A model generated the notes under the pieces. The model was not told where the DNA came from, searched no databases, and saw only the letters and a program-made list of their open reading frames with translations. A stretch of DNA of 64,000 bases from Mycoplasmatales bacterium (GTDB taxonomy: Bacteria; Bacillota_I; Bacilli_A; Mycoplasmatales; JABABV01): positions 5,343 through 69,342 of the forward strand of contig CBDCUL010000007.1 in assembly GCA_965222855.1 (NCBI GenBank). Direction: 5' to 3'. The position numbers and the translations under genes were made by a program. Positions 29,297 through 60,916 of this stretch are shown piece by piece (positions within the stretch are counted from its first letter, which is position 1; the number at the start of each line of letters is the position of its first letter).

Positions 29297-29325
29297 AATA
29301 AATATCCTCTTTCTTTTTTCGTTAA

Positions 29326-39686: not shown

Positions 39687-41561
39687 TTAGTTAATGTAAT
39701 CATACGTTTTAGTTAATAAATTATAAGTTATTATTGCCCGGTAATAACTTACATATATTAATCCCCCACGAGTTTTGTATAAAAATTGTCCTGAAACACT
39801 AATTTTTGCAACATTACCAGAAAATGTTGTTTTTGAAATTGATGATATTCCTGGACTAGCAACATTGGCAATTGGGACGCGTTTTCTAAAAGCGATAAAG
39901 CGACGAATTTGATATTGTAATTCTGGTGTTTTAAAGCCCATTCATGCTGGTGTTATGCTGTCTTGTTTTTTCATTGCGGGTGTTAAGTCATCTCATTTAG
40001 GTCACGTAACTGGTGTTAGTGGTAATATGGCTGGAGTTAATTTACGCATTGCTGGATTCAAACTATTTGAATTAGTAACAATATGTAAATTTCAGAAAGT
40101 GAATTTATTACTATCGGCGTTGTAAACTGCTGTGGCTATTACTGAACCATAAATTCCGTTAACATTTATTGTTGCATTTACACTAGCATAAGTTTTCTGG
40201 CTTTCGCCTTGCTTATGAACGTTATATACATTAACTTTTGACAACAGTTCTGCCGTTGTATTAGTTGGTACATAATTTTGCAGTGCTGTTGTCAAAGGAG
40301 CGTGTAGGTGCTCGTTTGTAAAGATTGCAATAGATGGTCCTAAATTGTTCATTGCCGGATTCATACTATTTGAATTAGTTACAATATGTAAATTTCAGAA
40401 AGTGAAATTATTACTATCAGTATTATAAACTACAGTAGCAGTAATTGATCCTTTGATTCCTGCAACATTAACTGTTGCATTTACATCGGCATAAGCTTTA
40501 TGAGACTCACCTAGTTTGTGAATATTATAGACGTTAACTTTTGATAGCAGCTGAGATTCTGTACCGGTTGGTAAATAATTATGCAATGCTGTTGTCAAAG
40601 GAGCGTGTAGGTGCTCGTTTGTAAAGATTGAAGTAGATGGTCCTAAATTGTTAATTGCCGGATTCATACTATTTGAATTAGTTACAATATGTAAATTTCA
40701 GAAAGTGAAATTATTACTATCAGTATTATAAACTACAGTAGCAGTAATTGATCCTTTGATTCCTGCAACATTAACTGTTGCATTTACATCGGCATAAGCT
40801 TTATGAGACTCACCAAGTTTGTGAATATTATAGACGTTAACTTTTGATAGCAGCTGAGATTCTGTACCGGTTGGTAAATAATTATGCAATGCTGTTGTCA
40901 AAGGTTGCTGCAAACGCTCGTTTGTAAAGATTGTAGTAGATGGTCCTAAATTGTTAATTGCAGGTGTTAGGCCTTCTTGTTTTGGTCACTTAACTGGCGT
41001 TAGTGGTAATATGGCTGGAGTTAATTTACGCATTGCTGGATTAAAACTATTTGAATTAGTAACAATACGTAAGTTTCAGAAAGTAAATTTTCCACTATCG
41101 GCGTTATAAACTACAGTCGCTATTACTGAACCATAAATTCCGTTAACATTTACTGTTGCGTTCACACTAGCATAAGTTTTGTGACTTTCACCTAGTTTGT
41201 GAACATTATATACATTTACTTTTGACAACAGCGCTACTGTCGTACTTGTTGGTAAATGATTGTGTAGTGCTGTTGATAAAGGAGCGTGCAAACGCTCGTT
41301 TGTAAAGATTGTAGTAGATGGTCCTAAATTGTTCATTGCAGGTCTTAAATCATCTCATTTAGGTCATGCAACTGGTGTTAGTGGTAATATAGCGGGACTT
41401 AGTTTATTCATTCCTGGCCCTACTAACGGTGCATCTGGATGATGTTTAGAATGTGACTTATGATGAAAGATGAAAGTTGTTGCACTACCAATTAATAATA
41501 AAAAGACTAGTGATAAACTGGATACCATAATTTTAAATTTCTTTTTTGTTGATTTGTTCAT
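39687..41561 (-). CDS. membrane-anchored modular surface protein F1 with four ~100-aa tandem domains, ~624 aa
   Basis: Six track ORFs (39687.., 40092.., 40395.., 40698.., 41076.., 41364..) are all in one frame, each separated by a single TGA in the motif FTF-W-NLH. The N-terminus MNKSTKKKFKIMVSSLSLVFLLLIG has no lipobox Cys. Confidence 0.7.
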
Positions 41562-41749
41562 TCTAAACACTCCTTACTTTTAGTGATTTTCTAAGATGGG
41601 ATTTTATATCAATATAAATATTTTGTCATACATTTTATCATATTATCGCAGTAAATACAAATGTTGTTCAATAATCTTCTAATTAATTAGATTTTATTAA
41701 CACAACATTTGTATTTACTTTTATATTATTATCATATAATTAGAAATAA

Positions 41750-42469
41750 TTATTCATGCGTATAACTATATTTATTAGTATTAAAATTAAAGAAGACATG
41801 AATATCATTTGATCAAGCAGGTAGGAATCAACCATTTTTCTTATACATTCAACATTTAGCATCAATTGTTTGTTCAGCAATATTGTTATTAATTTTTATT
41901 TTATAAGCATAAGAAATGCTCATATGTCTAATTTCATTAATTGATGTACCTTCTCTTTTGGCAAATCAAAGACTAGCTTGATGTTTTAAAACAGCTGTGG
42001 GAAAAATATCTTGCGCAGGTGTTAGATTTGAGATTGCCGGAGTTAAGTTTGAAATGGCTGGTGTTAGGTTTGAGATAGCGGGTGTTAGATTAGAGATTGT
42101 AGGTGTTAGCCCATCTCACTTCGGTCACTTAACTGGTGATAAGTTCGAGATAGCCGGTGTTAATCCAGAGATAGCCGGTGTTAATCCAAAAATTGTTGGA
42201 GTTAAGTTCGAGATAGCAGGAGTTAAACTAGATATAGCTGGCGATAGTTCACGAATAGCTGGTGTTAAGTTATCTTGTTTGGGGAATTTCGCTGGCATGA
42301 AGGGCATTAAACTTGGTGTTAATGCTGAACTATCAGGATTAGGAAGTTGCGCCTTTTTGGGCATAAAAATGAAAGTTGTTGCACTCCCAATTAATAATAA
42401 AGATACCATTGATAAACTGGATACGATAATTTTTAATTTCTTCTTCGTTGATTTATTAATAATGAACAC
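41750..42469 (-). CDS. modular surface protein F2 (signal anchor + heptad repeats + C-terminal domain), ~239 aa
   Basis: Track ORF 42125..42469 is read through TGA to TAA 41750..41752. The start is GTG, or ATT at the position of the F1 ATG, after a GGAG RBS. Confidence 0.6.
42026..42268 (-). repeat. 21-nt (7-aa, LTPAISN-type) in-frame tandem repeats in F2, interrupted by one PVKWPKWDG unit
   Basis: LTPAIRE LSPAISS LTPAISN LTPTIFG LTPAISG LTPAISN ... LTPTISN LTPAISN x3. Confidence 0.7.
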
Positions 42470-42502
42470 TCCTTTTTTTATTGTTTTTTTAAATTAGCTT
42501 AA

Positions 42503-44212
42503 TTACATTACGTAACTAAATTTGTTAGTATTCAAGTTATAACGAATACGGGAATGAAAATATGGGTAGGCGAAACCGCCTCAACTCATGCGCATTCAAC
42601 AATTACCATCAACTCGCACTTCAGCAATGTTGTTAGTAATTGTTATTTTATTAATTTTCGAAATTTTAAATCTTGAAATTTCGTTAATTGAACTATGTTC
42701 TTTCTTTGATAATCAAAGTTTTATTTGTTGCTCTAAAATATTTTTGGGAAAAATATCTTGAGCAACATTATTATTATAACTACTACTTGGGATTGTTATA
42801 ATAACGTTAGAAGTAGCATATGTGTCTGTTTCAAATAAATAAGTTACTTGCATCACAAATTTATAAGTTTTTCCATTTAATATGACATAACCTTTAACGG
42901 GTGCTGTTGTTGTTTTTTTGATTGGGTCAAAATATAGTTCTGAGCGGTTGATGCCTGTGATCTTTAAATCACTAGCAGCAATAGTTTCATTTAATTTTTT
43001 ACTCATCGCTATTACAGTAATTGGATGGAGATTAACTTTAATAAATGGTTTAAATCCTGGAAGAATATCAGACATAGCTGGAGTTAATTCATCTCACTTT
43101 GGTCATTTAACTGGTGATAGTCCATCTCACTTTGGTCATTTAACTGGTGACAGGCCATCTCACTTCGGTCATTTAACTGGTGATAGTCCATCTCACTTCG
43201 GTCATTTAACTGGTGATAGTCCATCTCACTTTGGTCATTTAACTGGTGTTAAGTTTGAAGACATTGCTCAATCAGTTTTTAAGTTAGTGATTAAGTATGA
43301 TTGATCATTTAGTGAATAAGTTACTATTGCACTAAATTTTTTATCAACACCGCCAACTGTGACTATTCCATAAATATTAGCTGTCGTTGTTGTAATTGGT
43401 TGTCCTTGAATTAATAATGTATTTGTATGAATATTAGTAACTGAAATTCCTGGTGCTAATGTTCAATGGCTACCGATTGGTAACTTGTTAGTTAAAGCAT
43501 TAGATACAGGTACTATTAAATTATTGTTGGCAAAGATTGAAGTTGCTGGTGTTAGATCTTTTTGTGTTGGCATAGCTGGTGTTAACTCATCTTGTTTCGG
43601 TCATTTAACTGGTGATAGTCCATCTCACTTCGGTCATTTAACTGGTGACAGGCCATCTCACTTCGGTCATTTAACTGGTGATAGTCCATCTCACTTTGGT
43701 CATTTAACTGGTGTTAAGTTTGAAGACATTGCTCAATCAGTTTTTAAGTTAGTGATTGAGTATGATTGATCATTTAGTGAATAAGTTACTATTGCACTAA
43801 ATTTTTTATCAACACCGCCAACTGTGACTATTCCATAAATATTAGCTGTCGTTGTTGTAATTGGTTGTCCTTGAATTAATAATGTATTTGTATGAATATT
43901 AGTAACTGAAATTCCTGGTGCTAATGTTCAATGGCTACCGATTGGTAACTTGTTAGTTAAAGCATTAGATACAGGTAGTATTAATTCACTACTGGCAAAG
44001 ATTGAAGTTGCTGGTGTTAGACCATTTGGTTTGATGAAAGATTCTGGTGTTAATGGTGTTCAAGTTGGGATAATTAATGGTGCATCTGGATTATGATATT
44101 TATGTTTTTTAACATAAAATACAAATGATGTTGTGCTACCAATTAATAATAAAGATACAATCGATAAACTAGATACCATCATTCTGAATTTATTGTTTGT
44201 TCGTTTTGACAT
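42503..44212 (-). CDS. modular surface protein F3 with duplicated 155-aa unit and Trp-rich 11-aa repeats, 569 aa
   Basis: I checked codon by codon from ATG 44212 to track ORF 42713..43075 and found no TAA/TAG. It continues to TAA 42503..42505. The C-terminal domain is homologous to F2. Confidence 0.7.
43081..43250 (-). repeat. 33-nt (11-aa) Trp-rich tandem repeat, 5 copies (SPVKWPKWDGL)
   Basis: Both Trp in each unit are TGA codons. Units are near-identical at the DNA level. Confidence 0.7.
43580..43715 (-). repeat. 33-nt Trp-rich tandem repeat, 4 copies (second array in F3)
   Basis: Same unit as 43081..43250. It lies one 465-nt duplication period away. Confidence 0.7.
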
Positions 44213-44671: not shown

Positions 44672-46747
44672 CTATCAACGATAATAATATCTGTGAGTTG
44701 TTAAATTATATAAGATTACAGCAGTATATTTATATCCTATATATTTGTTGAAAAAACGAGTTCTGTATCCAAATGTACCTTTTACTTGTACTTGAGTATA
44801 ATTATTTTGAATAGTTGCTTTTGATATACTATTAATTTTAAAGTTTAAAAAGCGACTAGAATTAATTTCAATTCTATAGCTAAGTCATGTTTTGATTTCT
44901 GTAGTTAGTATTTTATTGTTGAATATATTATGTGATGGTACCATTGGTTTTCTATCTGGAGTTAAACCTGAGATTGCTGGAGTTAAACCTGAAATTGCTG
45001 GAGTTAAGTTTGAAATGGCTGGTGTTAGTCCAGATATTGCTGGAGTTAAACCCGAAATGGCTGGTGTTAGTCCAGATATTGCCGGAGTTAAGTTTGAAAT
45101 GGCTGGTGTTAGTCTAGATATTGCCGGAGTTAAGTTTGAAATGGCTGGTGTTAGATTAGAGATCGCTGGATTCAAATTATTTGAATTTGCGACAAGATGT
45201 AAATTTCAGAAAGTGAAATTATTACTATCAGCATTATAGACTACGGTTGCTATTACTGAACCGTAAATCTGATCAACATTTATGGTTGCATTAATATCAG
45301 AATAAGTTTTATTAGACTGTCCTAGTTTATGAATGTTATATACATTAACTTTTGATAATAGCGCTGATGTTGCACCTGTTGGTAAATAATTATGCAATGC
45401 TATTGTCAAAGGTTGGTGTAAACGCTCGTTTGTAAAGATTGTAGTAGATGGTTCTAAATTGTTCATTGCCGGAGTTAGATTAGATATTGCCGGAGTTAAA
45501 CCTGAGATTGCAGGCGTTAAGTTAGATATAGCTGGTGTTAGTCCAGATATTGCTGGAGTTAAGTTTGAAATGGCTGGAGTCAATCCTGATATAGCTGGAG
45601 TTAAGTTTGAAATGGCTGGTGTTAGATTAGATATTGCAGGAGTTAAACCTGAGATTGCTGGATTCAAACTATTTGAATTTGTGACAAGATGTAAATTTCA
45701 GAAAGTGAAATTATTACTATCAGCATTATAGACTACAGTTGCTATTACTGAACCGTAAATCTGATCAACATTTATGGTTGCATTAATATCAGAATAAGTT
45801 TTATTAGACTGTCCTAGTTTATGAATGTTATATACATTAACTTTTGATAATAGCGCTGATGTTGCACCTGTTGGTAAATAATTATGCAATGCTATTGTCA
45901 AAGGTTGGTGTAAACGCTCGTTTGTAAAGATTGTAGTAGATGGTTCTAAATTGTTCATTGCCGGAGTTAGATTAGATATTGCTGGAGTTAAACCTGAGAT
46001 TGCAGGCGTTAAGTTAGATATAGCTGGTGTTAGTCCAGATATTACTGGAGTCAATCCTGATATAGCTGGAGTCAAGTTTGAAATGGCTGGTGTTAGTCCA
46101 GATATTGCTGGAGTTAAACCTGATATAGCTGGAGTTAAGTTTGAAATGGCTGGTGTTAGTCCAGATATTGCTGGAGTTAAACCTGAGATTGCAGGCGTTA
46201 AGTTCGATATAGCCGGCGTTAAACCTGAAATGGCTGGAGTTAAACCTGAGATTGCTGGATTCAAACTATTTGAATTTGTGACAAGATGTAAATTTCAAAA
46301 AGTAAACTTTCTACTATTACTATTATAAACAGCGGTAGCTGTTGCGGTATTATAAATACCATCAATATATATTGTGGCATTTATATTAGCATAAGATTGT
46401 CTATCATCACCTTTTGCATGAATATTATAAATATTAACTACTGATAATAATGATGCTGATTTTGTAAGTGGTAAATAGTTTTGTAGAGCTTTTGCAAAAG
46501 GACCTCGTAAATTTTCGTTAGTAAAAATTTCAGTAGTCGGTCTCAAATTATTAATCATAGGCGTTAATGATGATTGTTGTGTCTTAATTTTATTTCAAAT
46601 TGGATTGATTAATGGCATATCATTATTATTTCTAGGATTCTTATTTGGTTTGAATTCTAAAGATGCAACACTACTAATTAATAGAATTAATGCGATAGAT
46701 ACACTCGATATTGTAATTTTTAATTTTTTCTTAGATTTATGATTCAT
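44672..46747 (-). CDS. modular surface protein F4 with three 21-nt repeat arrays, 691 aa
   Basis: Track ORFs 44885.., 45206.., 45698.., 46295.. and 46595.. are all in frame. GGAG RBS plus ATG 46747 (MNHKSKKKL). TAG 44672..44674. Confidence 0.7.
44963..45175 (-). repeat. 21-nt tandem array A in F4, ~10 copies (TPAIS[NG]L)
   Basis: Read directly from track ORF 44885..45175. Confidence 0.8.
45455..45667 (-). repeat. 21-nt tandem array B in F4, ~10 copies
   Basis: Read directly from track ORF 45206..45667. Confidence 0.8.
45947..46264 (-). repeat. 21-nt tandem array C in F4, ~15 copies
   Basis: Read directly from track ORF 45698..46264. Confidence 0.8.
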
Positions 46748-47067: not shown

Positions 47068-47958
47068 TTAATTATTTTTAATGATTCATCTTTGGCTAAC
47101 TATTTTTGGATTTGGGTTAAAAGTAATTGTGGCAATTACTTGCTTATTTACTTTACTAATAACTTTTCAACTAAAATTACTATTCGAAACAATATCGATA
47201 TTTTGGAGCGTTGTTTGACGCAGTCCTAAATATTGTTTAACAGCTTCAGTTAGTGAACTTGTAATATGTGATAATTTTGCCGAATTATTATTAGTGGCTT
47301 TTGTTAAATCATATGATTTAACAAAAGCAAACTGATATGCCATTCTAGTTGTGTGATCAATTGCTGTTGTTGTATTAGCTAGTCCTAAATAACTAACTGT
47401 TAATTGTTGATCAATAATCGTTGTTGTAATTAATTTATTGTTAATTTTAGTTGTGCTATTTTTGTTTCAATTTTGAATATGACTAGATCCTTTAGGGAAT
47501 ACTAATGCAGCATCATTTCAGAATGGATAGTAATAACTATCATTCAATGATGATAATGCATTAGTATGTAAATCATTTAGTGCTAAATCTTGACCTAAAA
47601 TCTTACTATTAATTAGTCCGCCAATATCTTTAGTGCTTCATCTTTGATAATGACTATTTTTTTCTACTTTAACATTAAATGGGATATTTTTAAACACACT
47701 ACTATTTTGAGTTATTGTGTCAGTATATGAAATTGTGCCTGTAACTAGATTTGCTTTAGTAACTGTATTGACTTTTAACACTACGTTACTGAGCAATTTA
47801 AGATCATCTAATTGGTATGCTAAATCAGTTGCAATCCTCTTCGACGTTGGCTTAAAAAAATGGTTATGACAGCTCATCGTTGTTGTGGCAAATGTAGTTA
47901 TTGCCACAACACTGCTACAACTAATTAAAAAGATTTTAATTATTTTAAATTGCTTCAT
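47068..47958 (-). CDS. lipoprotein, 296 aa
   Basis: The signal peptide ends in TTMSC. Track ORF 47638..47958 extended through TGA codons to TAA 47068..47070. Confidence 0.6.
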
Positions 47959-48234: not shown

Positions 48235-49011
48235 TTAATCAATTACTAAATTATTAATCGCATATCGATTGTCATTAAGACTGTATGATATTGTTGCATC
48301 AAATCTTTTATCAACACCATTAACAGTTATTATGCCATAAATATTAGCACTAGATATTATTACTAAATTACCTTGTATTAATATTGAATAAGTTCGCACA
48401 TGCGTATGAGCGATTGCGCTAGCTAGTGTTCATTTAGTACCAATTGGCAAATGCTTTGAAAAAGAATTTGCAACTGGTACTAATAATTCATTACTGGCAA
48501 AAATTGAAGTGGTTGGTATTAGTGATTCTAGAGCTGGTGTTGTGCTATCATCTTTAGTAGTTGTCACTACTAAATTGTTAATTATAAATTTTCCTACTTT
48601 TTTATTATCAATAGCAACATAAGTATATGTTGCTATTGCACTATAAGAATAATCACTTTTACCAATAGTTACTTTACCTCTAATATCGGCGAAAACTGAT
48701 ATTATGATGGCATTTTTATGAGCATCAATACCATGCTTAACTTTGAAGTTATTGGCTTTAATTGATGATCCTAATTTTAAAGCGATTGTGTAACCAGTTA
48801 AGTGAGTTGATAAAGCATTTAACACTGGCATAGTTAAGCGATTGTTAGTAAAAATATCAGTAGAATAACTTATATTGTTATCTATAATTGTTTGATTTTT
48901 TGGTGCATGGATTTTTTTACCACAACTAGCAACTGTAGTTGTAACAACTCCAGTTGCAGCAAGTATAGAAAAACTCGTTAATAAGATTTTTAATTTTCTA
49001 GATTTATTCAT
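48235..49011 (-). CDS. modular lipoprotein (2 domains), 258 aa
   Basis: MNKSRKLKILLTSF...TVASCG lipobox. Track ORF 48430..49011 plus 64 further codons to TAA 48235..48237. Confidence 0.65.
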
Positions 49012-49302
49012 AATTTGTTCATTCCTTTTTTCACTTGTTTTATTTTGAAAATAATCTAGCTTAATTTTATAGTTGGTAATTAATTAAATAGTCGATTAAT
49101 CCTTAAAGATTACTTAATTGGCTCACACTCTTATATTAAACCTAAATTTAATTTATTTAACAATCTTTTTTTAAGAAATTTATTTTATATTTTGAATTTA
49201 AAAAAACACCAACTAAAAATTTAGTTGGTGTTTTTGTTATTTGAATTAAACTATATTTTAAATATGGTTTAATTAGTTTTATTGATCTTAAATTAATTGT
49301 TA

Positions 49303-51942
49303 TTATGCAACAATTTTAAAATTAATAATTTTATATGATTGAGTTTTAACATCATATAACGCTGTAGCAGTAAAATGTTTATTAATTCCACCAGCAATAA
49401 TTATTGTTCCGTTTATTGTAGCTGAATATGAAATTATTGTTGACTTACCTTTAATTAAAACAGATACATCTGTCACGTTACTAGCGTGCATATTTGGTGA
49501 AATAATAAATTGTGAACCATTTGGTAAAGATGAATGATTTGCAATATAAGATTTTATTGGTTCTTCTAAGTTTCTACCTGAAAAAGGATTAGTTGGTAAA
49601 GTTACACTCATTGCTGGTCCCAAGTTTGCTGAACCAACAGTAAATGTAGATTGAGAAGTAACATATTCTTGAGTTGCAAAATTATATGATACTACTATTG
49701 AAAATTTGTTATACATTTTAGTATCGTTAAGATAAACTGTTCCAGTCACTAGTAATGTTGAAGTTTGAGTTTTTTTATTATATAAAACATTTGAAGTATC
49801 AAAATTATTAGTTAATATTTGTGAAACGTTGTTTGCTCCTAATTTTTTAGCAAAAGCTGTTTTAAGTGGTGTTTGTAGACTAGTTTGATTAAAAACTTGA
49901 TTTGCAGGTGTTGTCGGAATATCGTTTCATACTAAGTTAGTAGTTGTATATAATCCACTAGCATAAGTATATATAACAGTTGTTGAAAATGTTTGAGATT
50001 GTCCATTAATCATTACTCTACCAGATACTCTAGCTTGAGCAGAAATTATTGTACCTTTAGCATTTTTGTTAACTGTGATATCTACAATAGGACGAATCAT
50101 TATATTATCTATTGTAGAATTTTTAGTAGGTAAATTATTTTTTATTTGTGCTTTTACTGATGGTAGTACTGCATATGTTTTAAATATGTTGGTTGCTGGT
50201 GTTAGATTTGAGATTGCTGGTGTTGTTGCATCACTTTCACCTACAAGAATATGTAAATTTCAGAAAGTGAAATTTCCAGTATCGGCATTATAAACTACAG
50301 TTGCAAGAACTTTTCCAAGAATTCCATTAACTTTAACTGTTGCTGTAACACCGGCGTAAGCTTTATTACTTTCACCTTGTTTATGAATATCATAAACAGA
50401 TGGTGCTCATACAATTGATGATTGTATACCAGCGGGTAAATGATTTTTCAATGCTATCGCTAATCCCGGGCGTAAACGATCAGCTGTGAAAATTGTAGTA
50501 GATGGAGCAATAATTGAGATAGCCGGTGTTAGTCCATGCATTGCCGGTATTAGGTTTGATGCATTCGCACTAATTACTAAATCAGTAATTACATAGAAAT
50601 CATCATCAAGCTGAAATCATGCTTTTGCTGTAAATGTTCTATTTATACCATTAATAGTTACTACACCAGTAATATTAGCTGAATTAATTGTAACGCTTGG
50701 GTTAGTTTTCTCAGTTTTAATATTAGTAGCTGTGATCCCTGTAGCTAATGTTCAACTAGGACCAAACATAAGTTTTTGTGATAAAGCTTGTGTTACTGGC
50801 GCAACTAAATCATCACTTGTAAAAACTGAAGTAGATGGTGTTAATGATTGTCCAGTTGGAATTAATGTATTCATTTTATGGTTGATTTTTAAATTAGTAA
50901 TTTGATATGATTGCGTAGCTCAAGTATATGAAACAGTTGCATTAAATGGTTGGACTCCATTAGCAAGCGTTACTTGACCATTTATTATAGTTGAAGATAC
51001 TTGGTTTCCTGCTTTTATAGAAATAGTTATATTTCCATGTGTAACTGGTGTTACATATCTAGTTGGTCCAGGTAATAAATGTTTATTGATTGCCTGAGCA
51101 ACAAGTATGTGTAAGTGTGCATTTGAAAACACTGAATCTGCAGGTTTTATAACATCTTGGTTAGGAAAAACAATTGGTGTAAATGGTGTTAATGGTCTCA
51201 TTGCTGGTCCTATATCAGAAGGAACCGCCATAATAACTTTTAAGTTAGTGATTATGTATGATGAATTGTTCAAACTATTATATGATACATTAGCACTAAA
51301 TCTTTTATTAATACCATTAATAGTTACTATACCATAAATATTTGCTGTAGAAGTTGTGATTGGATTACCTTGAATTAAAACTGTGAAAGTTTTGACGTTA
51401 GTAACAGAAATCGCTGGTGCTAACGTTCAACTTGAACCTACAAATTTATGTCCTAAAGCATTGTTAACAGGTACTATTATTTTATTACTTGCAAAAATAG
51501 ATGTTATTGCTGGACCTATGTTAGTCCCAGCAATGTGAATTTTTAAGTTACTAATAACATATGTTTTACTGCTATAAGTAAATATTGCTGATGCTGTATA
51601 GTTAGAAGTCACTGTACCAATAGTTACTTTTCCAGTTAGATTAGCTGAAGCAGTCGTAATTGTTGCTTTAGTAAATCCAACTTGCATATTACTAGATGTT
51701 ATTGTTGCATCTAAGCTAAATTTAGTATCACCTAAATGAGCTTTAATTGCAGCTGTTACAGATGTATTTAAAGCTGTTTGAGTGAATGGCGAAGTAGCCG
51801 CTGACATAGATTTTCCTATTGGAGTATTTTTCCCTTTATCTGCATTTTTACCACAACTAGCAACTGTCGTTGTAACAACACCCGTTGTTGCAACTGCGGC
51901 AAAACTAGTTAGTAAAATTTTTAATTTCTTAGATTTGTTCAT
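49303..51942 (-). CDS. large modular lipoprotein (~9 domains), 879 aa
   Basis: Track ORFs 49303.., 50920.. and 51427.. are in one frame. I checked triplets across 49741..50340 and found no TAA/TAG. Lipobox TVASCG. TAA 49303..49305. Confidence 0.65.
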
Positions 51943-52155: not shown

Positions 52156-53490
52156 TTATACAGTAATTTTAAAATTAATAATTTTATATGATTGACTTGT
52201 AACATCATATAATGCTGTAGTAGTAAAGTGTTTGTTCATTCCGCCAGCAATAATTATTGTTCCGTTTATTGTAGCTGAATAAGAAATTATTGTTGATTTA
52301 CCTTTAATTAAAACAGATACATCTGTAACGTTACTAGCGTGAATATTTGGTGCAATAATAAATTGTGAACCATTTGGTAAAGATGAATGATTTGCAATAT
52401 AAGATTTTATTGGTTCTTCTAAGTTTCTACCTGAAAAAGGATTGCTTGATGGTAATCCGCTCATTGTTGGTATCAAGTTTTCTGAATCAACAGAAAATGT
52501 AGCTTGAGAAGTAACATATGTTTTAGTTGCAAAATCATATGATACTACTATTGAGAATTTATTATACATTTTAGTATCGTTAAAATAAACTGTTCCACTA
52601 ACTAATAATATTGAAGTTTGAGTTTTTTTATTATATAAAACATCTGAAGCAGCAAAATTATTAGTTAATATTTGTGAAAAGTTCTTTGTTCCTAATTTTT
52701 TAGTAAAAGCTGTTTTAAGTGGTGTTTGTAGGCTAGTTTGACTAAAAACATAAGTAGCTGATGTTATCGGAATATCGTTTCATACTAAGTTAGTAGTTGT
52801 ATATAATCCACTAGCATAAGTATATATAACAGTTGTTGAAAATGGTTGAGATTGTCCATCAATCATTACTCTACCAGATACTCTAGCTTGAGCAGAAATT
52901 ATTGTACCTTTAGCATTTTTGTTAACTGTGATATCTACAATAGGACGAATCATTATATTGTCTATTGTAGAATTTTTAGTAGGTAAATTATTTTTTATTT
53001 GTGCTTTTACCGATGGTAGTACTGCATATGTTTTAAATATGTCAGTTGCTGGTGTTGTATTAGGTATATAATCTAATTTAAAAGTTGCTGCGTTTGGTGT
53101 TGTATATGATAATGTTGCAAAAGTATAAACTACTTTAACAGTGAATATTTGTTTAATACCATTAATATTTACTTTACCTATTATTGTAGAAGAAGATGAT
53201 ATGATATTACTTTGAGCATCTTTTTTAGCTACAATATTAGATATTAATACAATATTAATATCTTTTACTTTAGATCCTGTTAATGAACTTTTTTGTAAAG
53301 ATGTAGTTACACTTGGTAATAAGTTTGCTTTTGAAAATAAGTAAGTAGCGGGTGATATTTTTGTTTCTAGTGGGTTATCATTCGATTTCTTATTTGTCCC
53401 ACAACTAGTTATTGTTGTTGCGACAACGCCGGTTGTTGCAACTGCTGCAAAACTAGTTAATAAAATTTTTAATTTCTTAGATTTGTTCAT
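52156..53490 (-). CDS. modular lipoprotein, 444 aa
   Basis: Track ORFs 52156.. and 52780.. are in frame. Lipobox ITSCG. The C-terminal ~300 aa are near-identical to the 49303..51942 product. Confidence 0.65.
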
Positions 53491-53895
53491 TTTGTTAATT
53501 CCTTTTCTTTATTTTTTTATTTTTTTAATTAAATTATATTTGTATATAAAAATTTTAATAATTAATATTAATGCTATAAAAATGCTATAAAAACGTTGTT
53601 AATAGCAACGTCTTTTATGGAAATTATGTAACGATTATTAATTATTAAAATTTGTGTTATTTATATTCGTATCTTGTTTTATATTAATTTATACAATTAT
53701 CATTTTACCATATAATATTTTTTATTGCCATCTTAAATTAATTACACTGATCTAAATTTAAGTATCATATCTAATATTTAAATAATTACTGTTATATATA
53801 AATAACAAAAAAATACAACTACTAATATAGTTGTATTTTTGTTTTAATAATATTAATCAACATTATTTAGTTTTTAATTAGTATATTATTATTGA

Positions 53896-55296
53896 TTATT
53901 TTTTAGCAACAATAACAACATTACTAATTACGAATGGTGTTTTTGCACCAATTGTGTATTTTGCGGTTGCTGTGTAAGTGTATACTACTTTATCAATGCT
54001 TACAGTAGCGCTAATATTAGCTCCATATCCTGTAACTTGACCCTTTTCATTAACTGAAGCATAAGTTACAAATGTGCTTTGATCATATGTAACCAATGAT
54101 GGAGTGATTACTTTAGCATCTTTGTATGCTTTTTGACTTTTAACAGATGCGCTAATAACAGGTGTTAAATTTTTACTTGTAAAAATTTTATTAGCTGTTA
54201 TTGTTGTTTGTTTTGTTCATGGTTTATTAACAATTTTTAAATTAACAATAGCATAAAGTTTTTTATTAACATCATAAATTGCTCTTGCACTATATTTATA
54301 GCTGTTTTTATTATTAGTTATTGTTCCTGCTATATCAGCATATTTCATCACGATTTTTTTACCTTGAATTACTGCACTAATAGTTTTAATATTAGTAACA
54401 GTAATTTTTGGTGCTAAACTAAATTGGACATTTTGTCCTAATTTAGTTTGAATAGCTGTTGTTACAGGGGCTGTTAAGTTTTTACTTATGAATGTATTAT
54501 TAGTTGGTGCATACGTTTTTGTAGGTGTAGGTAATATTGGTACTCAATTTGGATTAACGTTGTTAACGTTCAAGTTAGTTATTGCATATGAGTGATCACT
54601 TAATAGATATTGAGCATTCGCACTAAATGATCTAATGTTTCCTTCAACGTTAACATATCCATATATGTTAGCACTTGAAATTGTCATTGGATTACTTTGA
54701 ACTACAACAGTAATAGTTTTAATATTATTAGCGATAATATTTGGTGATAATACAAAAATATTACCGACCAAATATTTAGATAAAGCATGTCGAACCGGTT
54801 TCATTAAACGACTACTTCCAAAAACAGGTGTAGTTGATGGGATAATTGGTTCTATTGCTGTTGCTGAATTTATATTTATTTCAGCAACATGAATTGCAAA
54901 GTTAGAAATAGTATATGGTGATCAACTACCATAGTTATATACTGCTGTAGCAGTATAATTATAAACAACTTTTTTAATGGTAATTTTCCCACTTAGATTA
55001 GATGTTGAAGAAACAATGAATGATCGAATAAAGAGTACTTTAGCATGACTAGCCATAATATTTGGATTTAGGCTAAATGCTGTTGTTCCTAAATGAGCTG
55101 TGATCGCTTTTGTTAAAGGTGCTTTTAGAGCAGCTTTAGTAAATGGTGAAACTGAATTTGACATTCCAGTAGCAGGTGTATTATGGGCCGAATTTTTATT
55201 CTTACCACAACTAGATAATGTTGTTGCCATAACCCCAGTAATGGCAACAGCAGAAAAGCTCGTTAATAAAAATTTCAATTTTCTAGATTTATTCAT
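53896..55296 (-). CDS. modular lipoprotein, 466 aa
   Basis: Track ORFs 53896.., 54544.. and 54922.. are in frame. I checked 54097..54546 for stops and found none. Lipobox LSSCG. Confidence 0.65.
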
Positions 55297-55754
55297 AATT
55301 TGTTAATTCCTTTTCTATTTTATTTTTTTTATTTGTTTGGCGTTTAAATAGTGAATTAGATTATTGATTCATTTGTGAGCAGTGCTTAGTTTAATAAAAA
55401 TTTTAATAATTAGTGAATGCTATGAAATGTCTTTGATAGCAGGATTTTGTTAAAATTTATTTTAACGATCATTAATTATTAAAATTTTAATTGTTTATAC
55501 TTATTTTGGTTAGTGTATTTCCCTTATATTCATACACCTATAATTTTAACATACAAATTATTACCAGAAATATAATTCTTAATTGTTGGTTTGATTTTTG
55601 AGATATTAATCGGTGTTCCTGATTGGATATTTTTTATTGCTATAAATGATTTATAGCAATAAAAAAAATACAACTATTGATTTAGTTGTATTTTTTTATT
55701 ATTTAATTAGTTTGTTAAACTCATTATTACTTAAACGAATTATTGAATAAGTTA

Positions 55755-56786
55755 TTAATTATTAACTATAATATTTCAATTAGTTCCCATTGTAGTATAA
55801 GTTTGTGTATTTCATTGATAAGCTATACCTAATGAAAAAGTTCCATTAACAATTTGGTTATCTTTTTTAAAACTAAATGTACCATTTACATTAGCTGATG
55901 TTAATTGTTCTTTTTTATTAGCATTAATATTTTTAACTGGATTAATGTTTAAATTACTTACTACTGAATTTGTAGGTAGTTTTGATGTAATTGCATTTGT
56001 AACTGGTGTTGTTATTTCATTAGTTGCAAATACTGAAGTAGCATCATTATTAATTATAATATTTCAATTAGTTCCCATTGTAGTATAAGTTTGTGTATTT
56101 CATTGATAAGCTATACCTAATGAAAAAGTTCCATTAACAATTTGGTTATCTTTTTTAAAACTAAATGTACCATTTACATTAGCTGATGTTAATTGTTCTT
56201 TTTTATTAGCATTAATATTTTTAACTGGATTAATGTTTAAATTACTTACTACTGAATTTGTAGGTAGTTTTGATGTAATTGCATTTGTAACTGGTGTTGT
56301 TATTTCATTAGTTGCAAATACTGAAGTAGCTTGTGAAAATGGTTGAGGAATAGGATTAACATTAATTGATGGAATTATTCATTTAAAATTTAAATGTGTA
56401 ATAGCATATTGTCCACTATTAAAAATATAAGAAGCAGTTGCTGTAAATTTTTGATTTACACCATCAACAATTAATATTCCATAAATTTTAGCTGAAGAAA
56501 TTTTTACTCCTTGAACTGTTGCAGTTTGAATGTTTTTAGCAACAATGTTTGGAGCTATACTTCAAGCAGAACCTACTGGTAAAACATGTGATCAAGCAGT
56601 TGCTACTGGGTCCATTAAGTTTGCGCTTGCAAAAATTGGAGTAGCAGGTGTTAAAGCAGTTTGAGTTGGATTGTCATTTGAATTTTTACTTGTTCCACAA
56701 CTAGCTACTGTCGTTGCTACAACACCCGTTGTTGCAACTGCTGCAAAACTAGTTAATAAGATTTTTAATTTTTTTGATTTATTCAT
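55755..56786 (-). CDS. modular lipoprotein with a perfect 96-aa internal duplication, 343 aa
   Basis: Track ORF 56592..56786 (lipobox VASCG) is in frame with TAA 55755..55757. Confidence 0.65.
55769..56330 (-). repeat. direct tandem duplication, period 288 nt, apparently identical copies
   Basis: The string ataatatttcaattagttcccattgtag...gcaaatactgaagtagc occurs twice, starting near 55769 and 56057. Confidence 0.75.
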
Positions 56787-56905: not shown

Positions 56906-58060
56906 TTATTTAGCTCAATCTACAATATAAGGTGTTTTATTGCCAATTGTATAATTTACTTGGACAATAAAGTAATTATTTATATGATCCATTATTACTA
57001 TTCCAGTAACAACTTCTGAATATCCAATAATTTTATGGTCTTCATCATAAATTGGTTTTGAGTTTTCGTGAGTAAAAGTTGGTTTGATAGTAACAACTTG
57101 TGCTTTAACAACTTTACCTCTAACTGTGTGGCTTTTAGCAAAATATGTTGTAATAAATGAACTAACTGGTTTTTCTAAATTAGCATCAGTGAAGTAATTA
57201 CGAGCTGGTGTTAATTTAGAAGTAGTATCTTGAACTACGACATTCAAGATTTCATATGTATTAGTATTACTATGATAGACTGCACTGGCACTATATGTTC
57301 TAGCTATTGTATTAACAATAACTATTCCATCAATATCCGCTGTTGCTGCTGTGCTAGCATCAGCTAAAATTGTAAAATGTTGCACATTTGAAACATTAAT
57401 TTTTGGCATTACAGTTCAGTTATCATGAGCTTCTAATTTATGGACTACTGCAATTGTCACTGGCTGAGCTAGATTTTCACTTGTAAAAGTGTTGTTAGCT
57501 GGTGCCAATGGTGTCATTGGTATAGTCGCCGGTGTTAACGGTGAGACTGGAATAGTTGCTGGTGTTAACGGTGTTGATGGTAACGTTGGTGTTACTGTTG
57601 GTGTTTTTCCCGGAGTAGCCGGAGTTAGTGTTTTAGTAGCTGGTTGAATATCTAAGTTAACAATCTCATAATGTTTAATATTATTATGATATACGGCAGT
57701 TGCTTGATATGATCTAGCAACTGAGTTAATTATAATAATTCCACTAATATCAGCAGTTGATGCTGTAGTAGCGTTATCTAATACCACATAACTTTGAATG
57801 TTTGAAACACCAATATTTGGTGATAAAACTCAATCAGCATTAGCTGGTAATTTATCTGAAATTGAAATAAAATATTTAACTTGTCCAAATAAATTTTGAC
57901 TTGTAAAAGTATCATTTGTCGGTGCTAAACTTGTTGCCGTGGGATTATCGTTTAATTTATTACTTGTTCCACAACTAGCAATTGTTGTTGCTACAACACC
58001 TGTTGTTGCAACGGCCGCAAAACTAGTTAATAATATTTTTAATTTTTTAGATTTATTCAT
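56906..58060 (-). CDS. modular lipoprotein with Pro/Thr-rich linker, 384 aa
   Basis: Track ORFs 56915.., 57416.. and 57830.. are in frame. Start at MNKSKKLK, lipobox IASCG. Linker TLTPATPGKTPTVTPTLPSTPLTPATIPVSPLTPATIPMTPLAP. Confidence 0.65.
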
Positions 58061-58185
58061 TAGTAATCGTTTCCTTTCGTTATTCAATTTTGTTATTTTG
58101 TTTAATATCTGTATAGTGTGTGTCTAATACGGATTTGCTTGCTTATACGGACTTGTTTTGTTTTAACAACGTATTGTTATTAAAA

Positions 58186-58893
58186 CTATCAAGATATGCG
58201 GTAATGTGCCTGATTAGCTATGCTGTAAGTAACACGAATGGCATAATTGTGTTCTTTGTTATCAATTGTCAATAATAGAGTAACAACTTTCGAATATCCA
58301 ATAATTGTATGGCTATCTTTAGCTAAAATAATTTTTGAATCTCGGTGTTCTCTAAAAACTGGATTAATAATTATCGTTTTACCATAATATGCTTTCTGGC
58401 TAATAAAAAACTTATTGACAAATAATTTAACGGGTGCTTGTAAATTAGCATTAGTAAATAAATTGTTTGTTGTTGTAAGTTTTTTAATTGGTGGTTGAAT
58501 TGTTAAGTTTAAGATATCATAAACTTTAGTGTCATTATGATATATTGAACTTGCATTGAATGATCGTGGAATACTGTTAACTTTAACAATTCCCGATAAA
58601 TCAGCACTAGCGATTTGTTCAGCATTTGGCAAGATTGAATGATCAACTATATTAGTAATGTTAATTTTAGTTGATAATGTTCATGATTGATTTTTCTTAA
58701 TTTGTTTCGGAATCGAATGAGCTACTGGTTCAAATAAATTTTTACTTGTAAAAATTCCATTAGTTGGTTGTGGAGTGTTATCATGTTTATCGACATTCTT
58801 ACTACAGCTGGCGATTGTTGTGGCAACAACTGTTGTTGCTGCAAGTGCTGAAAAACTCGTTAATAAAATTTTTATTTTTTTAGATTTATTCAT
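58186..58893 (-). CDS. modular lipoprotein, 235 aa
   Basis: Track ORFs 58189.. and 58681.. are in frame. Lipobox IASCS. TAG 58186..58188 follows a read-through TGA. Confidence 0.6.
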
Positions 58894-59587
58894 CATAGTA
58901 TCAAATCCTTTTCTTTATTTTTAAGATTATCATTCTTGATCAAATGTCTTATTAATATATAAAGGGATTATTTATTTTGATTTTTAAATTTTAAAAGTTT
59001 GGAGACTTTATTTAATTAAATATATATTCGCTATTCTAAAATTATGTCTTAGTTGTTCTATCGTTTAAAACAATAATTTTGTATTAACGAAATAATATTA
59101 TACCATATATTATTGTATATACAAAATGCGATAATATGAATCAATATTAAGTCGTTAAAAACCAGTTTATTAAAAGCACTATTATCGAAATACAGTTTTA
59201 TTTAGTTTATTTAACTTTATAATGTTTAGTAGTGTTATTGGCTTGTTTAGATTTAATAAGGTATTGTTATTAAATCACTCAACATAAGCGCTAATCTACC
59301 TAATTCATTATGCTATGCGCAATATTAGAACTGGATCGGCTAGTTTTTAATTAATTGTTAATCGTATAATTGCGCTTTTTTTGATTACTCATAGTTTTTT
59401 AAAGAATCAATCATATTTGCTATCAACTATATGGATGAACTATATTAATTAAATAAGGAAGTATATTATAACATATATAATTGTATATACAAAATACGTA
59501 TGACAATTATAAATATTACAGCATAAAAAACAACATATTTTAACTTAAAATATGTTGTTTTTAAAGGTTATTTAGTTGATTAGTTGA

Positions 59588-60916
59588 TTAGTTAATTATT
59601 GGGTGAAAATCAACTTTTAAATTCCGAATTGCATAAAAATTACCCGCTTCACTATATTTTATATTAGCACTAAACGAATAGTAACTAGTTTTTGTTAGTT
59701 GATTTTGTGTTAGATAATCCGGCATACTAAAACTGCCTTCTATATTAGCATTCGCTGTGTGGTCTTTGATGTTGAGGGCGATTGATTTTCAATCAATCTT
59801 AAACTCAACATCAGCAATTATGTCTGTTGTTGGATCATAAGAGTTTCTTGTTAAACTTTTTCAAACAAAGATTGTTAAATTACTCTTACTATAGAAATTT
59901 GTTACTTGCGGATCTCACAGTGTTAAATTAGTAATTCGATATTGATAAGTTGATCAATTATATTCTACTAATGTTTGAAATACAGTTGGTGCTACACCAC
60001 TACCTTCTATAAAACTCCCAATAATTCCATTTCTAATAATATGTTGTTTCATAAAAATTACTGCATTGTCTGGATCAGGAGTTAAGATTTTAATATCAAA
60101 TGCTGTCTTTGATTCTTGATCAGCAAGCGCTGTCGCTAGTGCTTGTTTAATAATTGGATTATTAAACAAGTGCTTAATTTGAAAATGTCCCGCAATTTCA
60201 ATATCACTAAATAAAAAGACTGTTTTAGTAGCAGTATACTTTAATGTTAATTGGGCAACTATTATTTTCTGATTGATGACCAGATTAACTTGGGCATTAT
60301 GTAATGTTACTACTTTATGCTGAGCATCAATAATAATTTGTTGATTATCTAGTTGTTTGACGAATCCTGAATATAAGCTCACTTGACTATTAGGTCAACG
60401 ATTCTTTACCGCTACTCTCATTTCTGGAAAAAGTAATGGATTAGCAAAAGTAAATAAATGATCATAGTTATTTACTTGTCAACTATAAAAGTTATTTTCA
60501 TGATAACTTTTAGAAATTTCATTATATGCAACCTTTGTATTGAAAAAATAACTGTTAGTAATTGTTTTAGTGTCCTTAGTAATGATTGTAGCAACGATGG
60601 CACTAATTGTTGCAGATGCGATTGTTTGGTCATAATTAACACTAATCATTGCTTCCTGGACTGGGTAAATTCTGACAATTGTATAATGATTAGTGATTGC
60701 TTTAAAAGTAGCAGTTGTATCTGCTGCTGCTTGGATTGCTGGTGTTAAGTTATCAGCGCTGAAAAAAACTAGGGCACTTTTTTGGGTCAAATCACCTTTT
60801 GGTGGTTTGACTACTGGAGTACTAACACCACAACTGCTAACGTTAGCTATTACTAGACTAGTTAGAGATATCGCTCCAAAACTAGTTGCGATTAATTTGA
60901 GTTTATTGAATTTCAT
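59588..60916 (-). CDS. lipoprotein, 442 aa
   Basis: Track ORFs 59954.. and 60479.. are in frame. MKFNKLKLIATSF...NVSSCG lipobox. TAA 59588..59590. Confidence 0.6.

What the first reader, a model, noticed from the sequence alone, without database searches (positions are those of the whole stretch)
39687..60916. 21-kb unidirectional locus of 13 modular surface proteins built from a shared ~90-100-aa domain
One third of the window is a single-strand array of secreted proteins. Four (F1-F4) have an uncleaved-looking signal anchor (MNKSTKKK...LLLIGSATTF). Nine have classic lipoboxes after near-identical leaders (MNKSKKLKILLTSFAAVATTGVVATT..SCG).

Their mature parts are strings of 1 to ~9 copies of one domain type. 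Each domain starts with ..[TS]x[IV]F[AT][SN]xxLxxP[VL]xxA[LI].. and ends with ..[FY]xAx[VA]xYxxxxxxYx[IF]xN[LF]. Linkers between domains are Pro/Thr-rich or exact tandem repeats.

Domains are shuffled between genes. For example, the FTF-W-NLH type of F1 and F4 also occurs inside the 879-aa lipoprotein at ~50230. Each gene has its own TG-n-TAAAAT extended -10 promoter.

I could not match the domain to a named family. The organisation resembles mycoplasma variable-surface-antigen loci, but with a different building block.
Basis: partly seen in the sequence, partly recalled or inferred. Interest (0 to 1): 0.75.

Follow-up and report, generated by a model that had tools for sequence, protein, structure and literature searches.

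The report
Modular mycoplasma surface-protein gene array
A wall-less bacterium known only from metagenomes carries a 21-kb row of 13 genes for membrane-anchored surface proteins; 12 are built from 1-8 copies of an ~85-residue helix-plus-sheet domain with no named family, which is a new building block for a familiar mycoplasma strategy rather than a new kind of system.

Summary
The core observation holds. On the minus strand, 39687-60916 holds 13 co-oriented genes, read in genetic code 4. Four have an N-terminal membrane anchor and nine are lipoproteins. A profile built from the locus finds 44 copies of one ~85-aa domain in 12 of the 13 genes, with 1-8 copies per protein, and none elsewhere in the window.

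- Gene 47068-47958 lacks the domain.
- The predicted fold is a helix plus a five-stranded sheet (cystatin-like), not a beta-sandwich.
- Only 6 of 13 genes have a strict TGnTAWAAT box.
- F2 starts at an ATT codon.

The domain matches no Pfam or NCBIfam model and no solved structure. A full HMMER scan of 1.84 billion protein clusters found only about 32 true relatives, all from a few unnamed Mycoplasmatales metagenome-assembled genomes (MAGs). A link to the Spiralin domain is sub-threshold and unproven.

Modules are shared between genes, and duplications range from 66% to 99.6% DNA identity. Linkers are in-frame 21- and 33-nt tandem repeats. No switch was found: no recombinase, no inverted genes, no long homopolymer.

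Verdict: a lineage-specific surface-protein family, a new variant of the known mycoplasma multigene surface-antigen theme. Programmed variation is untested.

The parts
39687..41561 (-). F1, 624 aa. N-terminal membrane anchor with no Cys. Domain string A-A-A-A-J. Domains at 41079-41309, 40701-40931, 40398-40628, 40095-40325 and 39696-39935.
   Evidence: 303-nt tandem unit x3.0 at 88%
41750..42460 (-). F2, about 236 aa if started at ATT 42458-42460, which gives the same leader as F1 (INKSTKKKLKII...). LTPAISN-type 7-aa repeats, then one tip-type domain (C) at 41762-42007. Lies 39-42 nt behind F3, so probably co-transcribed with it.
   Evidence: ATT at the position of F1's ATG, same spacing from GGAG
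42503..44212 (-). F3, 569 aa, membrane anchor. Domain string B-B-K-C. 33-nt (11-aa LSPVKWPKWDG) repeats at 43090-43248 and 43596-43713. The B+linker unit is duplicated (465-nt period, 95-97% identical).
44672..46747 (-). F4, 691 aa, membrane anchor. Domain string A-A-A-L. 21-nt (7-aa LTPAISG/N) repeat arrays at 44956-45154, 45465-45669 and 45957-46266 (9.4, 9.4 and 14.8 copies).
47068..47958 (-). Lipoprotein, 296 aa, without the repeat domain. Its mature part is 41% identical (E 2e-63) to the C-terminal module of relative P0029, which carries one family domain at its N-terminus.
   Evidence: no Pfam or NCBIfam hit
48235..49011 (-). Lipoprotein, 258 aa. Domain string M-B. Vmc-like leader (23.9 bits, cut-off 19.3).
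49303..51942 (-). Lipoprotein, 879 aa (P0001). Eight domains, D-B-N-O-A-E-F-G. A mosaic of types also found in F1/F4 (A), F3 (B), 53896 (D) and 52156 (E-F-G).
52156..53490 (-). Lipoprotein, 444 aa. Domain string P-E-F-G. Its E-F-G part is 87% identical in protein to that of the 879-aa gene.
53896..55296 (-). Lipoprotein, 466 aa. Domain string D-Q-R-S.
55755..56786 (-). Lipoprotein, 343 aa. Domain string B-H-H. The H unit is duplicated at 99.6% DNA identity (55758-56042 vs 56046-56330).
56906..58060 (-). Lipoprotein, 384 aa. Domain string I-I-T, with a Pro/Thr-rich linker.
58186..58896 (-). Lipoprotein, 236 aa. Domain string U-V. Probably the first gene of a three-gene unit with 56906 and 55755, because the gaps are 119-125 nt with no promoter box and no terminator.
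59588..60916 (-). Lipoprotein, 442 aa, with a different leader. Four divergent domain copies, W-X-Y-Z.
48914..50203 (-). Segmental duplication, copy 1. The partner is 51845-53056 (84% over 1297 nt). Each copy holds E-F-G, the terminator and intergenic region, the promoter, and the leader of the next gene. The ends fall at a domain border and just after the lipobox.
   Evidence: coordinates mapped
53550..53653 (-). Inverted-repeat (IR) flanked element in the 212-nt leader of gene 52156: 18-nt perfect arms with 68 nt between them. The homologous element is at 55393-55492 in the leader of gene 53896 (24-nt arms, 92% complementary, 52 nt between).
41632..41640 (-). TGnTAWAAT extended -10 box upstream of F1. 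The others are at 52018, 53702, 55543, 59097, 59465 and 61135. All 7 minus-strand matches in the locus are intergenic.

Best explanation
The locus encodes a lineage-specific paralogous family of surface proteins of a wall-less, uncultured Mycoplasmatales bacterium.

**Protein design.** Each protein is held in the membrane at its N-terminus, either by an acylated Cys (nine lipoproteins) or by an uncleaved hydrophobic anchor (F1-F4). From there it projects a string of 1-8 independently folding ~85-residue alpha+beta modules, joined by Pro/Thr-rich or tandem-repeat linkers. In the four anchored proteins the string ends in a distinct, aromatic-rich 'tip' sub-type of the domain.

**How the family diversifies.** It grows by ordinary homologous recombination: tandem gene duplication, duplication of domain-plus-linker units inside genes, and exchange of whole modules at domain borders. 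The 21- and 33-nt in-frame repeats can add length changes.

**Expression.** Genes are transcribed from about 10 separate units, so several members are probably displayed at once as a coat and/or as adhesins. A single switched antigen is less likely.

**Shown versus inferred.** The domain, its predicted fold, the anchors, the mosaic architectures and the duplications are shown. Surface exposure, coat or adhesin function, and size variation in populations are inferred.
For: - **Domain and anchors:** 44 domain copies in 12 genes and none elsewhere in the window. Lipoboxes and anchors can be read directly from the sequences. The Vmc-like lipoprotein signal peptide model is passed by 5 genes.
- **Fold:** the AF2 model has pLDDT 90.6, with helix 8-22 and five strands. 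The best shape matches are cystatin-scaffold Affimers, TM 0.55-0.62.
- **Mosaic architectures:** for example D-B-N-O-A-E-F-G.
- **Duplications of different ages:** 99.6% (H-H), 95% (B-B), 84-88% (E-F-G block, A units) and 66-72% for older ones. The E-F-G block duplication ends exactly at a domain border and just after the lipobox.
- **Linker repeats:** 4-15 copies.
- **Selection:** dN/dS is 0.19-0.66 in domains, against 0.09 in the leader and 0.15-0.29 in the permease paralogues.
- **Transcription units:** all 7 TGnTAWAAT boxes in the locus are intergenic, in about 19% of the sequence. Terminator-like hairpins follow most genes, 13 found against 5.2 expected.
- **Relatives:** the family recurs, with the same anchors and the same tip domain, in related MAGs.
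- **Flanks:** housekeeping genes greA, tRNA-Arg and uvrC.
Against: - There is no expression, localisation or population data.
- No second strain is available, so variation is not shown.
- Most inter-gene module sharing is ancient (dS 0.5-0.9). This fits slow family evolution as well as an active variation system.
- The 21-nt repeats are imperfect, 69-77% at that period.
- The source is a MAG contig, so repeat copy numbers and near-identical duplicates could be mis-assembled.
- Function (coat, adhesin or other) has no direct support.
Confidence: 0.55

Rival explanations
1. This is a static paralogue family. The genes are stable, constitutively expressed binding or structural proteins that diversified slowly by duplication. 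There is no size or phase variation within populations, and the resemblance to variable-antigen loci is only architectural.
For: - No switching device was found.
- All genes are intact and co-oriented, with their own promoters and terminators.
- Most shared modules are old and under purifying selection, dN/dS 0.2-0.6.
Against: - Very recent intragenic duplications, 99.6% and 95% identical.
- Long in-frame tandem repeats. These are the substrates that give size variation in known systems (review PMC10502178).
- dN/dS is higher than in the neighbouring housekeeping paralogues.
Confidence: 0.25
2. Phase variation by DNA inversion. The IR-flanked 105-125-nt elements in the leaders of genes 52156 and 53896 are invertible switches, in the manner of the Mycoplasma penetrans mpl promoter inversions. 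They would turn these two genes on and off.
For: - There are two homologous elements with 18-24-nt arms at the same place in two leaders. The 25-mer occurs twice against 0 expected.
- The opposite strand of each element carries TGCTATAAA or TGCTATGAAAT boxes, read.
- Promoter inversion is an established mycoplasma switch (PMC10502178).
Against: - Only 2 of 13 genes have the element.
- A TGnTAAAAT box already lies upstream of each element.
- There is no recombinase gene in the 64-kb window.
- The arms would equally form an RNA stem in the leader, z about -2.2.
- Only one orientation is seen, and there are no reads to test.
Confidence: 0.1
3. The domain is a very divergent member of the Spiralin domain superfamily. 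The proteins would then be multi-domain relatives of the abundant Spiroplasma coat lipoprotein. This concerns ancestry and is compatible with the best explanation.
For: - One domain (879-aa protein, aa 48-136) scores 22.7 bits, E 1.4e-4, on PF05215.
- hhalign of the 67-sequence domain profile against 14 real spiralins gives E 5e-4 over 56 columns, aligning helix to helix.
- Spiralin is modelled as two units of helix plus three strands, the same order as the first part of this domain.
- Both are Mollicute lipoproteins.
Against: - The score is below Pfam's gathering score of 25 bits, and only 1 of 67 domains matches.
- hhalign probability is only 31%.
- This domain has two further strands.
- Shared Mollicute composition inflates weak scores.
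- Foldseek of the spiralin model gave only low-TM rod-like matches, so it was uninformative.
Confidence: 0.25
4. Assembly artefact. Part of the array (copy numbers of repeats, near-identical domain duplicates, the segmental duplication) was created or distorted by assembling a repetitive region from metagenomic reads.
For: - The source is a MAG contig of about 72.9 kb.
- The locus contains 95-99.6% identical repeats of 285-458 nt.
Against: - All 13 reading frames are intact.
- Most paralogues are only 66-88% identical in DNA, too divergent to be collapsed or chimerised.
- Related complete MAGs of 759 kb and 981 kb encode the same kind of multi-domain proteins.
Confidence: 0.05

Closest known systems
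Mycoplasma variable surface lipoprotein multigene loci (Vlp of M. hyorhinis, Vsp of M. bovis, Vpma of M. agalactiae, Vsa of M. pulmonis, Vmc of M. capricolum)
   Same: - A clustered family of surface lipoprotein genes.
- A highly conserved leader; NF045726 'Vmc-like' is passed by 5 genes.
- In-frame tandem repeats.
- Sharing of modules between paralogues. [quoted passage not shown]
   Different: - The building block here is a folded ~85-aa alpha+beta domain, not a short low-complexity repeat.
- All genes are co-oriented with their own promoters.
- There is no Xer-type recombinase, no recombination-site inversions and no poly(A) promoter tract.
- Four members are membrane-anchored proteins without a lipobox.
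- Variation itself is not shown.
Mycoplasma penetrans P35/mpl family (each gene switched by its own invertible promoter)
   Same: - Many co-clustered paralogous lipoprotein genes, each with its own upstream control region.
- Two genes here carry an IR-flanked element upstream.
   Different: - Only 2 of 13 genes have the element, and it lies downstream of a promoter box.
- No recombinase was seen.
- There is no sequence similarity of the proteins to any NCBIfam or Pfam model.
- Details of the mpl element are recalled from memory and from the review; the primary paper was not held.
Spiralin (PF05215), the major coat lipoprotein of Spiroplasma
   Same: - A Mollicute lipoprotein made of repeated helix-then-sheet units.
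- Weak sequence signals link the two.
   Different: - Spiralin has two units of helix plus three strands. This domain has helix plus five strands and occurs in up to 8 copies.
- The similarity is below curated thresholds.
Cystatin-like alpha+beta roll (phytocystatin-derived Affimer/Adhiron scaffolds; more loosely VirB8/NTF2-like)
   Same: One N-terminal helix packed on a curved antiparallel sheet. TM is 0.55-0.62 over the whole 90 residues.
   Different: - Foldseek E-values are only 0.04-0.2, with 9-14% identity.
- The cystatin QxVxG inhibitory loop motif occurs in only 5 of 143 domains, that is, it is not conserved.
- There is no evidence of protease inhibition.

Membership tests
Mycoplasma phase/size-variable surface lipoprotein systems | Clustered multigene family of surface lipoproteins with a conserved leader | tested here: met
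   - 13 clustered genes, 9 with a lipobox.
- 7 near-identical leaders. NF045726 scores 19.8-23.9 bits (cut-off 19.3) in 5 genes and 17.7-18.4 in 2.
Mycoplasma phase/size-variable surface lipoprotein systems | In-frame tandem repeats able to change protein length | tested here: met
   - 21-nt repeats, x4.4 to x14.8.
- 33-nt repeats, x3.6 and x4.8, at 94-95%.
- Domain-sized repeats of 288, 303, 465 and 492 nt.
- Length change itself was not observed.
Mycoplasma phase/size-variable surface lipoprotein systems | A switching device: site-specific recombinase with inverted genes or sites, a homopolymer or GAA tract in the promoter, or a single expression site | tested here: not met
   - All genes are on one strand.
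- No homopolymer of 9 or more, and no GAA or TA tract in the locus.
- No recombinase among the window ORFs.
- The two IR-flanked leader elements remain unresolved.
Mycoplasma phase/size-variable surface lipoprotein systems | Observed variation between clones or strains | not testable with these tools
   - All protein clusters are singletons.
- The source genome is absent from the GTDB representatives and from the JGI metagenomes.
- No contig is on record.
Spiralin domain (PF05215) | Score at or above Pfam's gathering score (25 bits) | tested here: not met
   The best score is 22.7 bits, E 1.4e-4, in one domain. The other 66 of 67 domains scanned give no hit. A true spiralin-like sequence scores 48.7 bits.
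Spiralin domain (PF05215) | Profile-profile similarity and the same fold | tested here: inconclusive
   - hhalign gives probability 31%, E 5e-4, over 56 of 86 columns.
- Secondary-structure order agrees for the helix plus the first three strands. Two extra strands are present here.
- No pairwise superposition tool was available.
Cystatin superfamily | Cystatin fold plus the conserved inhibitory QxVxG loop | tested here: not met
   The fold resemblance is only TM 0.55-0.62 with E of 0.04 or higher. QxVxG occurs in 5 of 143 domains. There is no Pfam cystatin hit.
Any Pfam-A / NCBIfam / PDB sequence family | Significant profile match of the repeat domain | tested here: not met
   - Pfam.
- NCBIfam.
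- PDB sequence profiles: best E 0.14.

The most novel reading that the evidence does not exclude
The locus is an active antigen or adhesin diversification system of a new design. Folded alpha+beta cassettes would be reshuffled between about 12 expressed genes at conserved 'L-T-P-A' domain junctions. A conserved membrane-distal tip domain would act as the binding head. Leader-embedded IR elements would act as a previously undescribed on/off or attenuation switch for some members.
Probability: 0.15. Interest if true: 0.6.

Novelty: new variant of a known kind. Interest (0 to 1): 0.35.

Why it matters
- **A new domain family.** It defines a surface-protein domain family missing from Pfam, NCBIfam and the PDB. 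The family has about 150 domain copies in about 35 proteins and is confined to a small uncultured Mycoplasmatales clade. It comes with a confident structural model, so it could be curated as a family.
- **A different way to build surface diversity.** Some mollicutes may build surface diversity from folded, shuffled modules rather than from short low-complexity repeats.
- **Limits.** The significance is modest. Lineage-specific lipoprotein gene families are expected in mycoplasmas. Nothing here yet shows a new mechanism or resolves an open question.

Tried and rejected
**Searches that found nothing or could not run**
- Word-indexed homologue search with the 879-aa protein found only the protein itself. 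The same search with the 67-domain alignment found nothing.
The profile search and the structure model therefore used only 16 TGA-free or P0001-derived domains.
The single-protein scan of the GTDB representatives found no relative, and the JGI metagenome scan found none.
- Exact-protein contig look-ups failed, so the genomic context of the family in the related MAGs could not be examined.
- The PheS scan only named unnamed MAGs. A literature search for the MAG accession found nothing.
- tblastn against plasmids and phages gave no match.
- Rfam found only the tRNA.
- The primary M. penetrans paper is not held.

**Tests that were uninformative or rejected a lead**
- The generic sigma-70 scan is uninformative in this AT-rich DNA: 136 sites against 140.5 expected.
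- Foldseek of the spiralin model was uninformative.
- Weak hits to DUF7709, YOMG_N and DUF1335 were rejected. They are isolated and far below the cut-offs.
- Three low-complexity proteins (P0024, P0030, P0032) in the profile search were rejected as false positives.
- The beta-sandwich expectation was rejected.
- A cystatin-type inhibitor function was rejected because the QxVxG motif is not conserved.

Full report
**Genetic code and gene map**

The window (28.8% G+C) is a Mollicute sequence read in genetic code 4. Translating with table 4 gives 59 ORFs of at least 100 aa (19,471 aa). Table 11 gives only 34 (6,283 aa). Nearly every gene contains in-frame TGA codons.

On the minus strand, 39687-60916 is filled by 13 co-oriented ORFs. 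The array is flanked by housekeeping genes:
- Downstream: greA and a ferritin gene.
- Upstream: tRNA-Arg(UCU) at 61233-61309, an unrelated lipoprotein gene, a metallophosphoesterase gene and uvrC.

**Anchors**

Four proteins (F1-F4) begin with a Lys-rich segment followed by a hydrophobic stretch of about 22 residues, with no cysteine. F2 has this leader only if translation starts at an ATT codon. That codon sits exactly where F1 has its ATG, at the same distance from the GGAG.

Nine proteins have a lipobox cysteine. Seven of these share the leader MNKSKKLKILLTSFAAVATTGVVATT..SCG. NCBIfam NF045726 ('Vmc-like lipoprotein signal peptide') is passed by five of them and narrowly missed by two.

That F1-F4 remain uncleaved is inferred from the sequence, not tested.

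**The repeated domain**

Starting from one segment of the 879-aa protein, an iterated HMM converged on 44 copies in 12 of the 13 proteins. Individual E-values ran from 1e-7 to 1e-30. The final model, run against every stop-to-stop ORF of the window, hits only these 12 genes with E below 0.1.

- Copies per protein range from 1 to 8.
- The domains cover 37-78% of each protein.
- Median pairwise identity is 26%. Only Phe6 and Tyr77 are nearly invariant.

Gene 47068-47958 has no copy. Its mature part is 41% identical (E 2e-63) to the C-terminal module of a relative (P0029). That relative carries one family domain in front of the module, so the two modules are linked by fusion elsewhere.

**Fold**

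AlphaFold2, with an alignment of 16 paralogous domains, gave a confident model: pLDDT 90.6, pTM 0.79. It has helix 8-22 followed by five strands.

Foldseek against the PDB found nothing below E 0.01. The best full-length shape matches are phytocystatin-derived Affimer/Adhiron scaffolds (TM 0.55-0.62). Looser matches are VirB8/NTF2-like proteins and a mitoribosomal protein. The cystatin QxVxG motif is not conserved, occurring in 5 of 143 domains.

**Is it a known family?**

No Pfam-A model reaches significance:
- on six whole proteins;
- on 67 individual domains;
- on ten divergent relatives.

NCBIfam recognises only the signal peptide. PDB sequence profiles give E of 0.14 or worse.

The one recurring lead is the Spiralin domain, PF05215. 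The first domain of the 879-aa protein scores 22.7 bits (E 1.4e-4), under the 25-bit gathering score. None of the other 66 domains scanned match.

To test this lead I did the following:
- I used a spiralin sequence recalled from memory as a query. It proved 93-94% identical to real S. citri spiralins and scored 48.7 bits on PF05215.
- With it I retrieved real spiralins, aligned 14 of them, and compared the profiles.
- hhalign gave 31% probability, E 5e-4, over 56 of 86 columns, aligning helix to helix.
- An AF2 model of spiralin shows two units of helix plus three strands. The order of elements agrees with the first part of this domain, but this domain has two further strands.

The relationship is possible but not established.

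**Distribution**

A full HMMER scan of 1.84 billion cluster representatives with the 16-sequence profile found 35 proteins at E of 1e-3 or better.
- Nine are from this window.
- Three are low-complexity false positives.
- The rest are multi-domain proteins with the same two kinds of anchor.

After iteration, 147 domain copies were found in 35 proteins. Cluster look-ups show that almost all are singletons without names. They sit on contigs of 981,211 and 759,388 bp and on a few shorter ones.

A PheS scan identifies the two large contigs as unnamed 'MAG: Mycoplasmatales bacterium' assemblies:
- OZ250146.1, 82% PheS identity;
- CBDCUK010000001.1, 85% PheS identity;
- a third MAG at 76%.

The source genome itself is not among the GTDB species representatives. 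The family is absent from the JGI metagenomes, plasmids and phages searched. The domain is therefore confined, as far as these searches reach, to a small uncultured clade.

**How the family is built and evolves**

Clustering domains at 45% identity or more gives 26 types and these architectures:

| Gene | Architecture |
|---|---|
| F1 | A-A-A-A-J |
| F2 | C |
| F3 | B-B-K-C |
| F4 | A-A-A-L |
| 48235 | M-B |
| 49303 | D-B-N-O-A-E-F-G |
| 52156 | P-E-F-G |
| 53896 | D-Q-R-S |
| 55755 | B-H-H |
| 56906 | I-I-T |
| 58186 | U-V |

The 879-aa protein (49303) is thus a mosaic of types found in both anchored proteins and lipoproteins.

DNA self-comparison shows duplications of several ages:

| Duplication | DNA identity |
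|---|---|
| H-H | 99.6% over 285 nt |
| B plus linker | 95% over 458 nt |
| A units | 88% |
| 1297-nt segmental duplication (48914-50203 vs 51845-53056) | 84% |

The segmental duplication contains E-F-G, the intergenic region and the leader of the next gene. Its ends coincide with a domain border and with the end of the lipobox.

Older shared modules are 66-72% identical in DNA, with dS of 0.5-0.9. dN/dS is:
- 0.19-0.66 for domain pairs;
- 0.09 for the leader;
- 0.15-0.29 for the three neighbouring permease paralogues.

This indicates relaxed constraint. It does not demonstrate positive selection.

Linkers include:
- 21-nt repeats (LTPAISG/N, 4.4-14.8 copies, imperfect);
- 33-nt repeats (LSPVKWPKWDG, 94-95% identical);
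- a Pro/Thr-rich tract.

All four anchored proteins, and three anchored relatives, end in the same aromatic/basic-rich sub-type of the domain. Because the anchor is N-terminal, this sub-type would be the membrane-distal tip.

**Expression signals**

A generic sigma-70 scan is uninformative in this AT-rich DNA: 136 sites against 140.5 expected.

The specific TGnTAWAAT box is informative. It occurs seven times on the minus strand of the locus. All seven are in intergenic DNA, which makes up about 19% of the locus. They lie upstream of six genes. Two more genes have TG-n-TATAGT or TATATA variants. F2, 56906 and 55755 lie 39-125 nt behind the preceding gene without a box or hairpin.

Hairpin-plus-T-run terminators follow most genes: 13 found against 5.2 expected, plus AT-rich ones. 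I infer about 10 transcription units.

**Search for a switch**

Nothing was found that would provide a switch:
- no homopolymer of 9 or more, and no GAA or TA repeat in the locus;
- all genes on one strand;
- no recombinase among the window's ORFs.

The one unexplained feature is a pair of homologous elements in the long leaders of genes 52156 and 53896.
- The arms are 18 nt (100% complementary) and 24 nt (92% complementary), with 68 and 52 nt between them.
- The 25-mer occurs twice against 0 expected.
- As RNA they would form a long AU stem, z about -2.2.
- As DNA they recall invertible promoter elements such as those of M. penetrans (review PMC10502178), and promoter-like boxes lie on their opposite strand.
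- They sit downstream of a promoter box and occur in only two genes.
- Rfam has no match.

**Conclusion**

Variability is not shown, and no dedicated switching mechanism is present.

The most likely reading is a lineage-specific family of N-terminally anchored, beads-on-a-string surface proteins. It diversifies by ordinary recombination, and several members are probably displayed together.

It is a new variant of a well-known kind. The new element is the domain family itself, which deserves curation. Because the source is a MAG, repeat copy numbers should be treated with caution.

Noticed in passing
window 53550-53653 and 55393-55492 (minus-strand leaders of genes 52156-53490 and 53896-55296): Two homologous elements flanked by 18-24-nt inverted repeats (arm AAATTTTAATAATTAAT) sit between the TGnTAAAAT box and the ribosome-binding site. 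They are found nowhere else in the window. They could be an RNA leader stem, an attenuator (the 52156 copy holds a hairpin plus T-run), or an invertible DNA switch.
   Followed up: partly
window 42458-42460: F2 (41750-42409 as an ATG ORF) almost certainly starts at an ATT codon 51 nt upstream. This restores the same K-rich leader as F1, at the same spacing from the GGAG.
   Followed up: yes
window 9937-16237 (+), and 61480-62214 (-): Five tandem paralogous lipoprotein genes of about 380 aa (MFKNK...CGHK, Trp-rich). Four are preceded by TGATAAAAT, and they have no Pfam family. The 244-aa lipoprotein next to the array has a similar N-terminal region (..YTWADF..). This is a second, unrelated lineage-specific lipoprotein family.
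   Followed up: partly
window 5924-7480 and 8045-9361 (-): Two paralogous lipoproteins made of BNR/Asp-box repeats (PF02012, DUF6242), that is, beta-propeller-type surface proteins.
   Followed up: partly
window 25705-30780 (-): Three tandem amino-acid permease paralogues (AA_permease_2), 65-77% identical to one another. They were used as the dN/dS baseline.
   Followed up: partly
window 1346-2500 (-): A 384-aa hydrophobic, Cys-rich ORF that uses TGG for all 6 Trp codons and no TGA, unlike its neighbours. It has no Pfam hit. It may be foreign DNA or not a real gene.
   Followed up: no
window 19162-20946 (-) and 21051-21689 (+): A DUF2130 protein with a long coiled-coil N-terminus. Next to it, on the other strand, is a shorter ORF whose C-terminal part repeats the start of the DUF2130 region (..IGENLENWI..EY..). 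It is possibly a truncated paralogue.
   Followed up: no
relatives P0008, P0010, P0014, P0017 (not in the window): In the related MAGs, some anchored family proteins end in a different module of about 185 aa (..FNIF.LKAK.DL...IDQW) instead of the tip domain. That module is absent from this window.
   Followed up: partly
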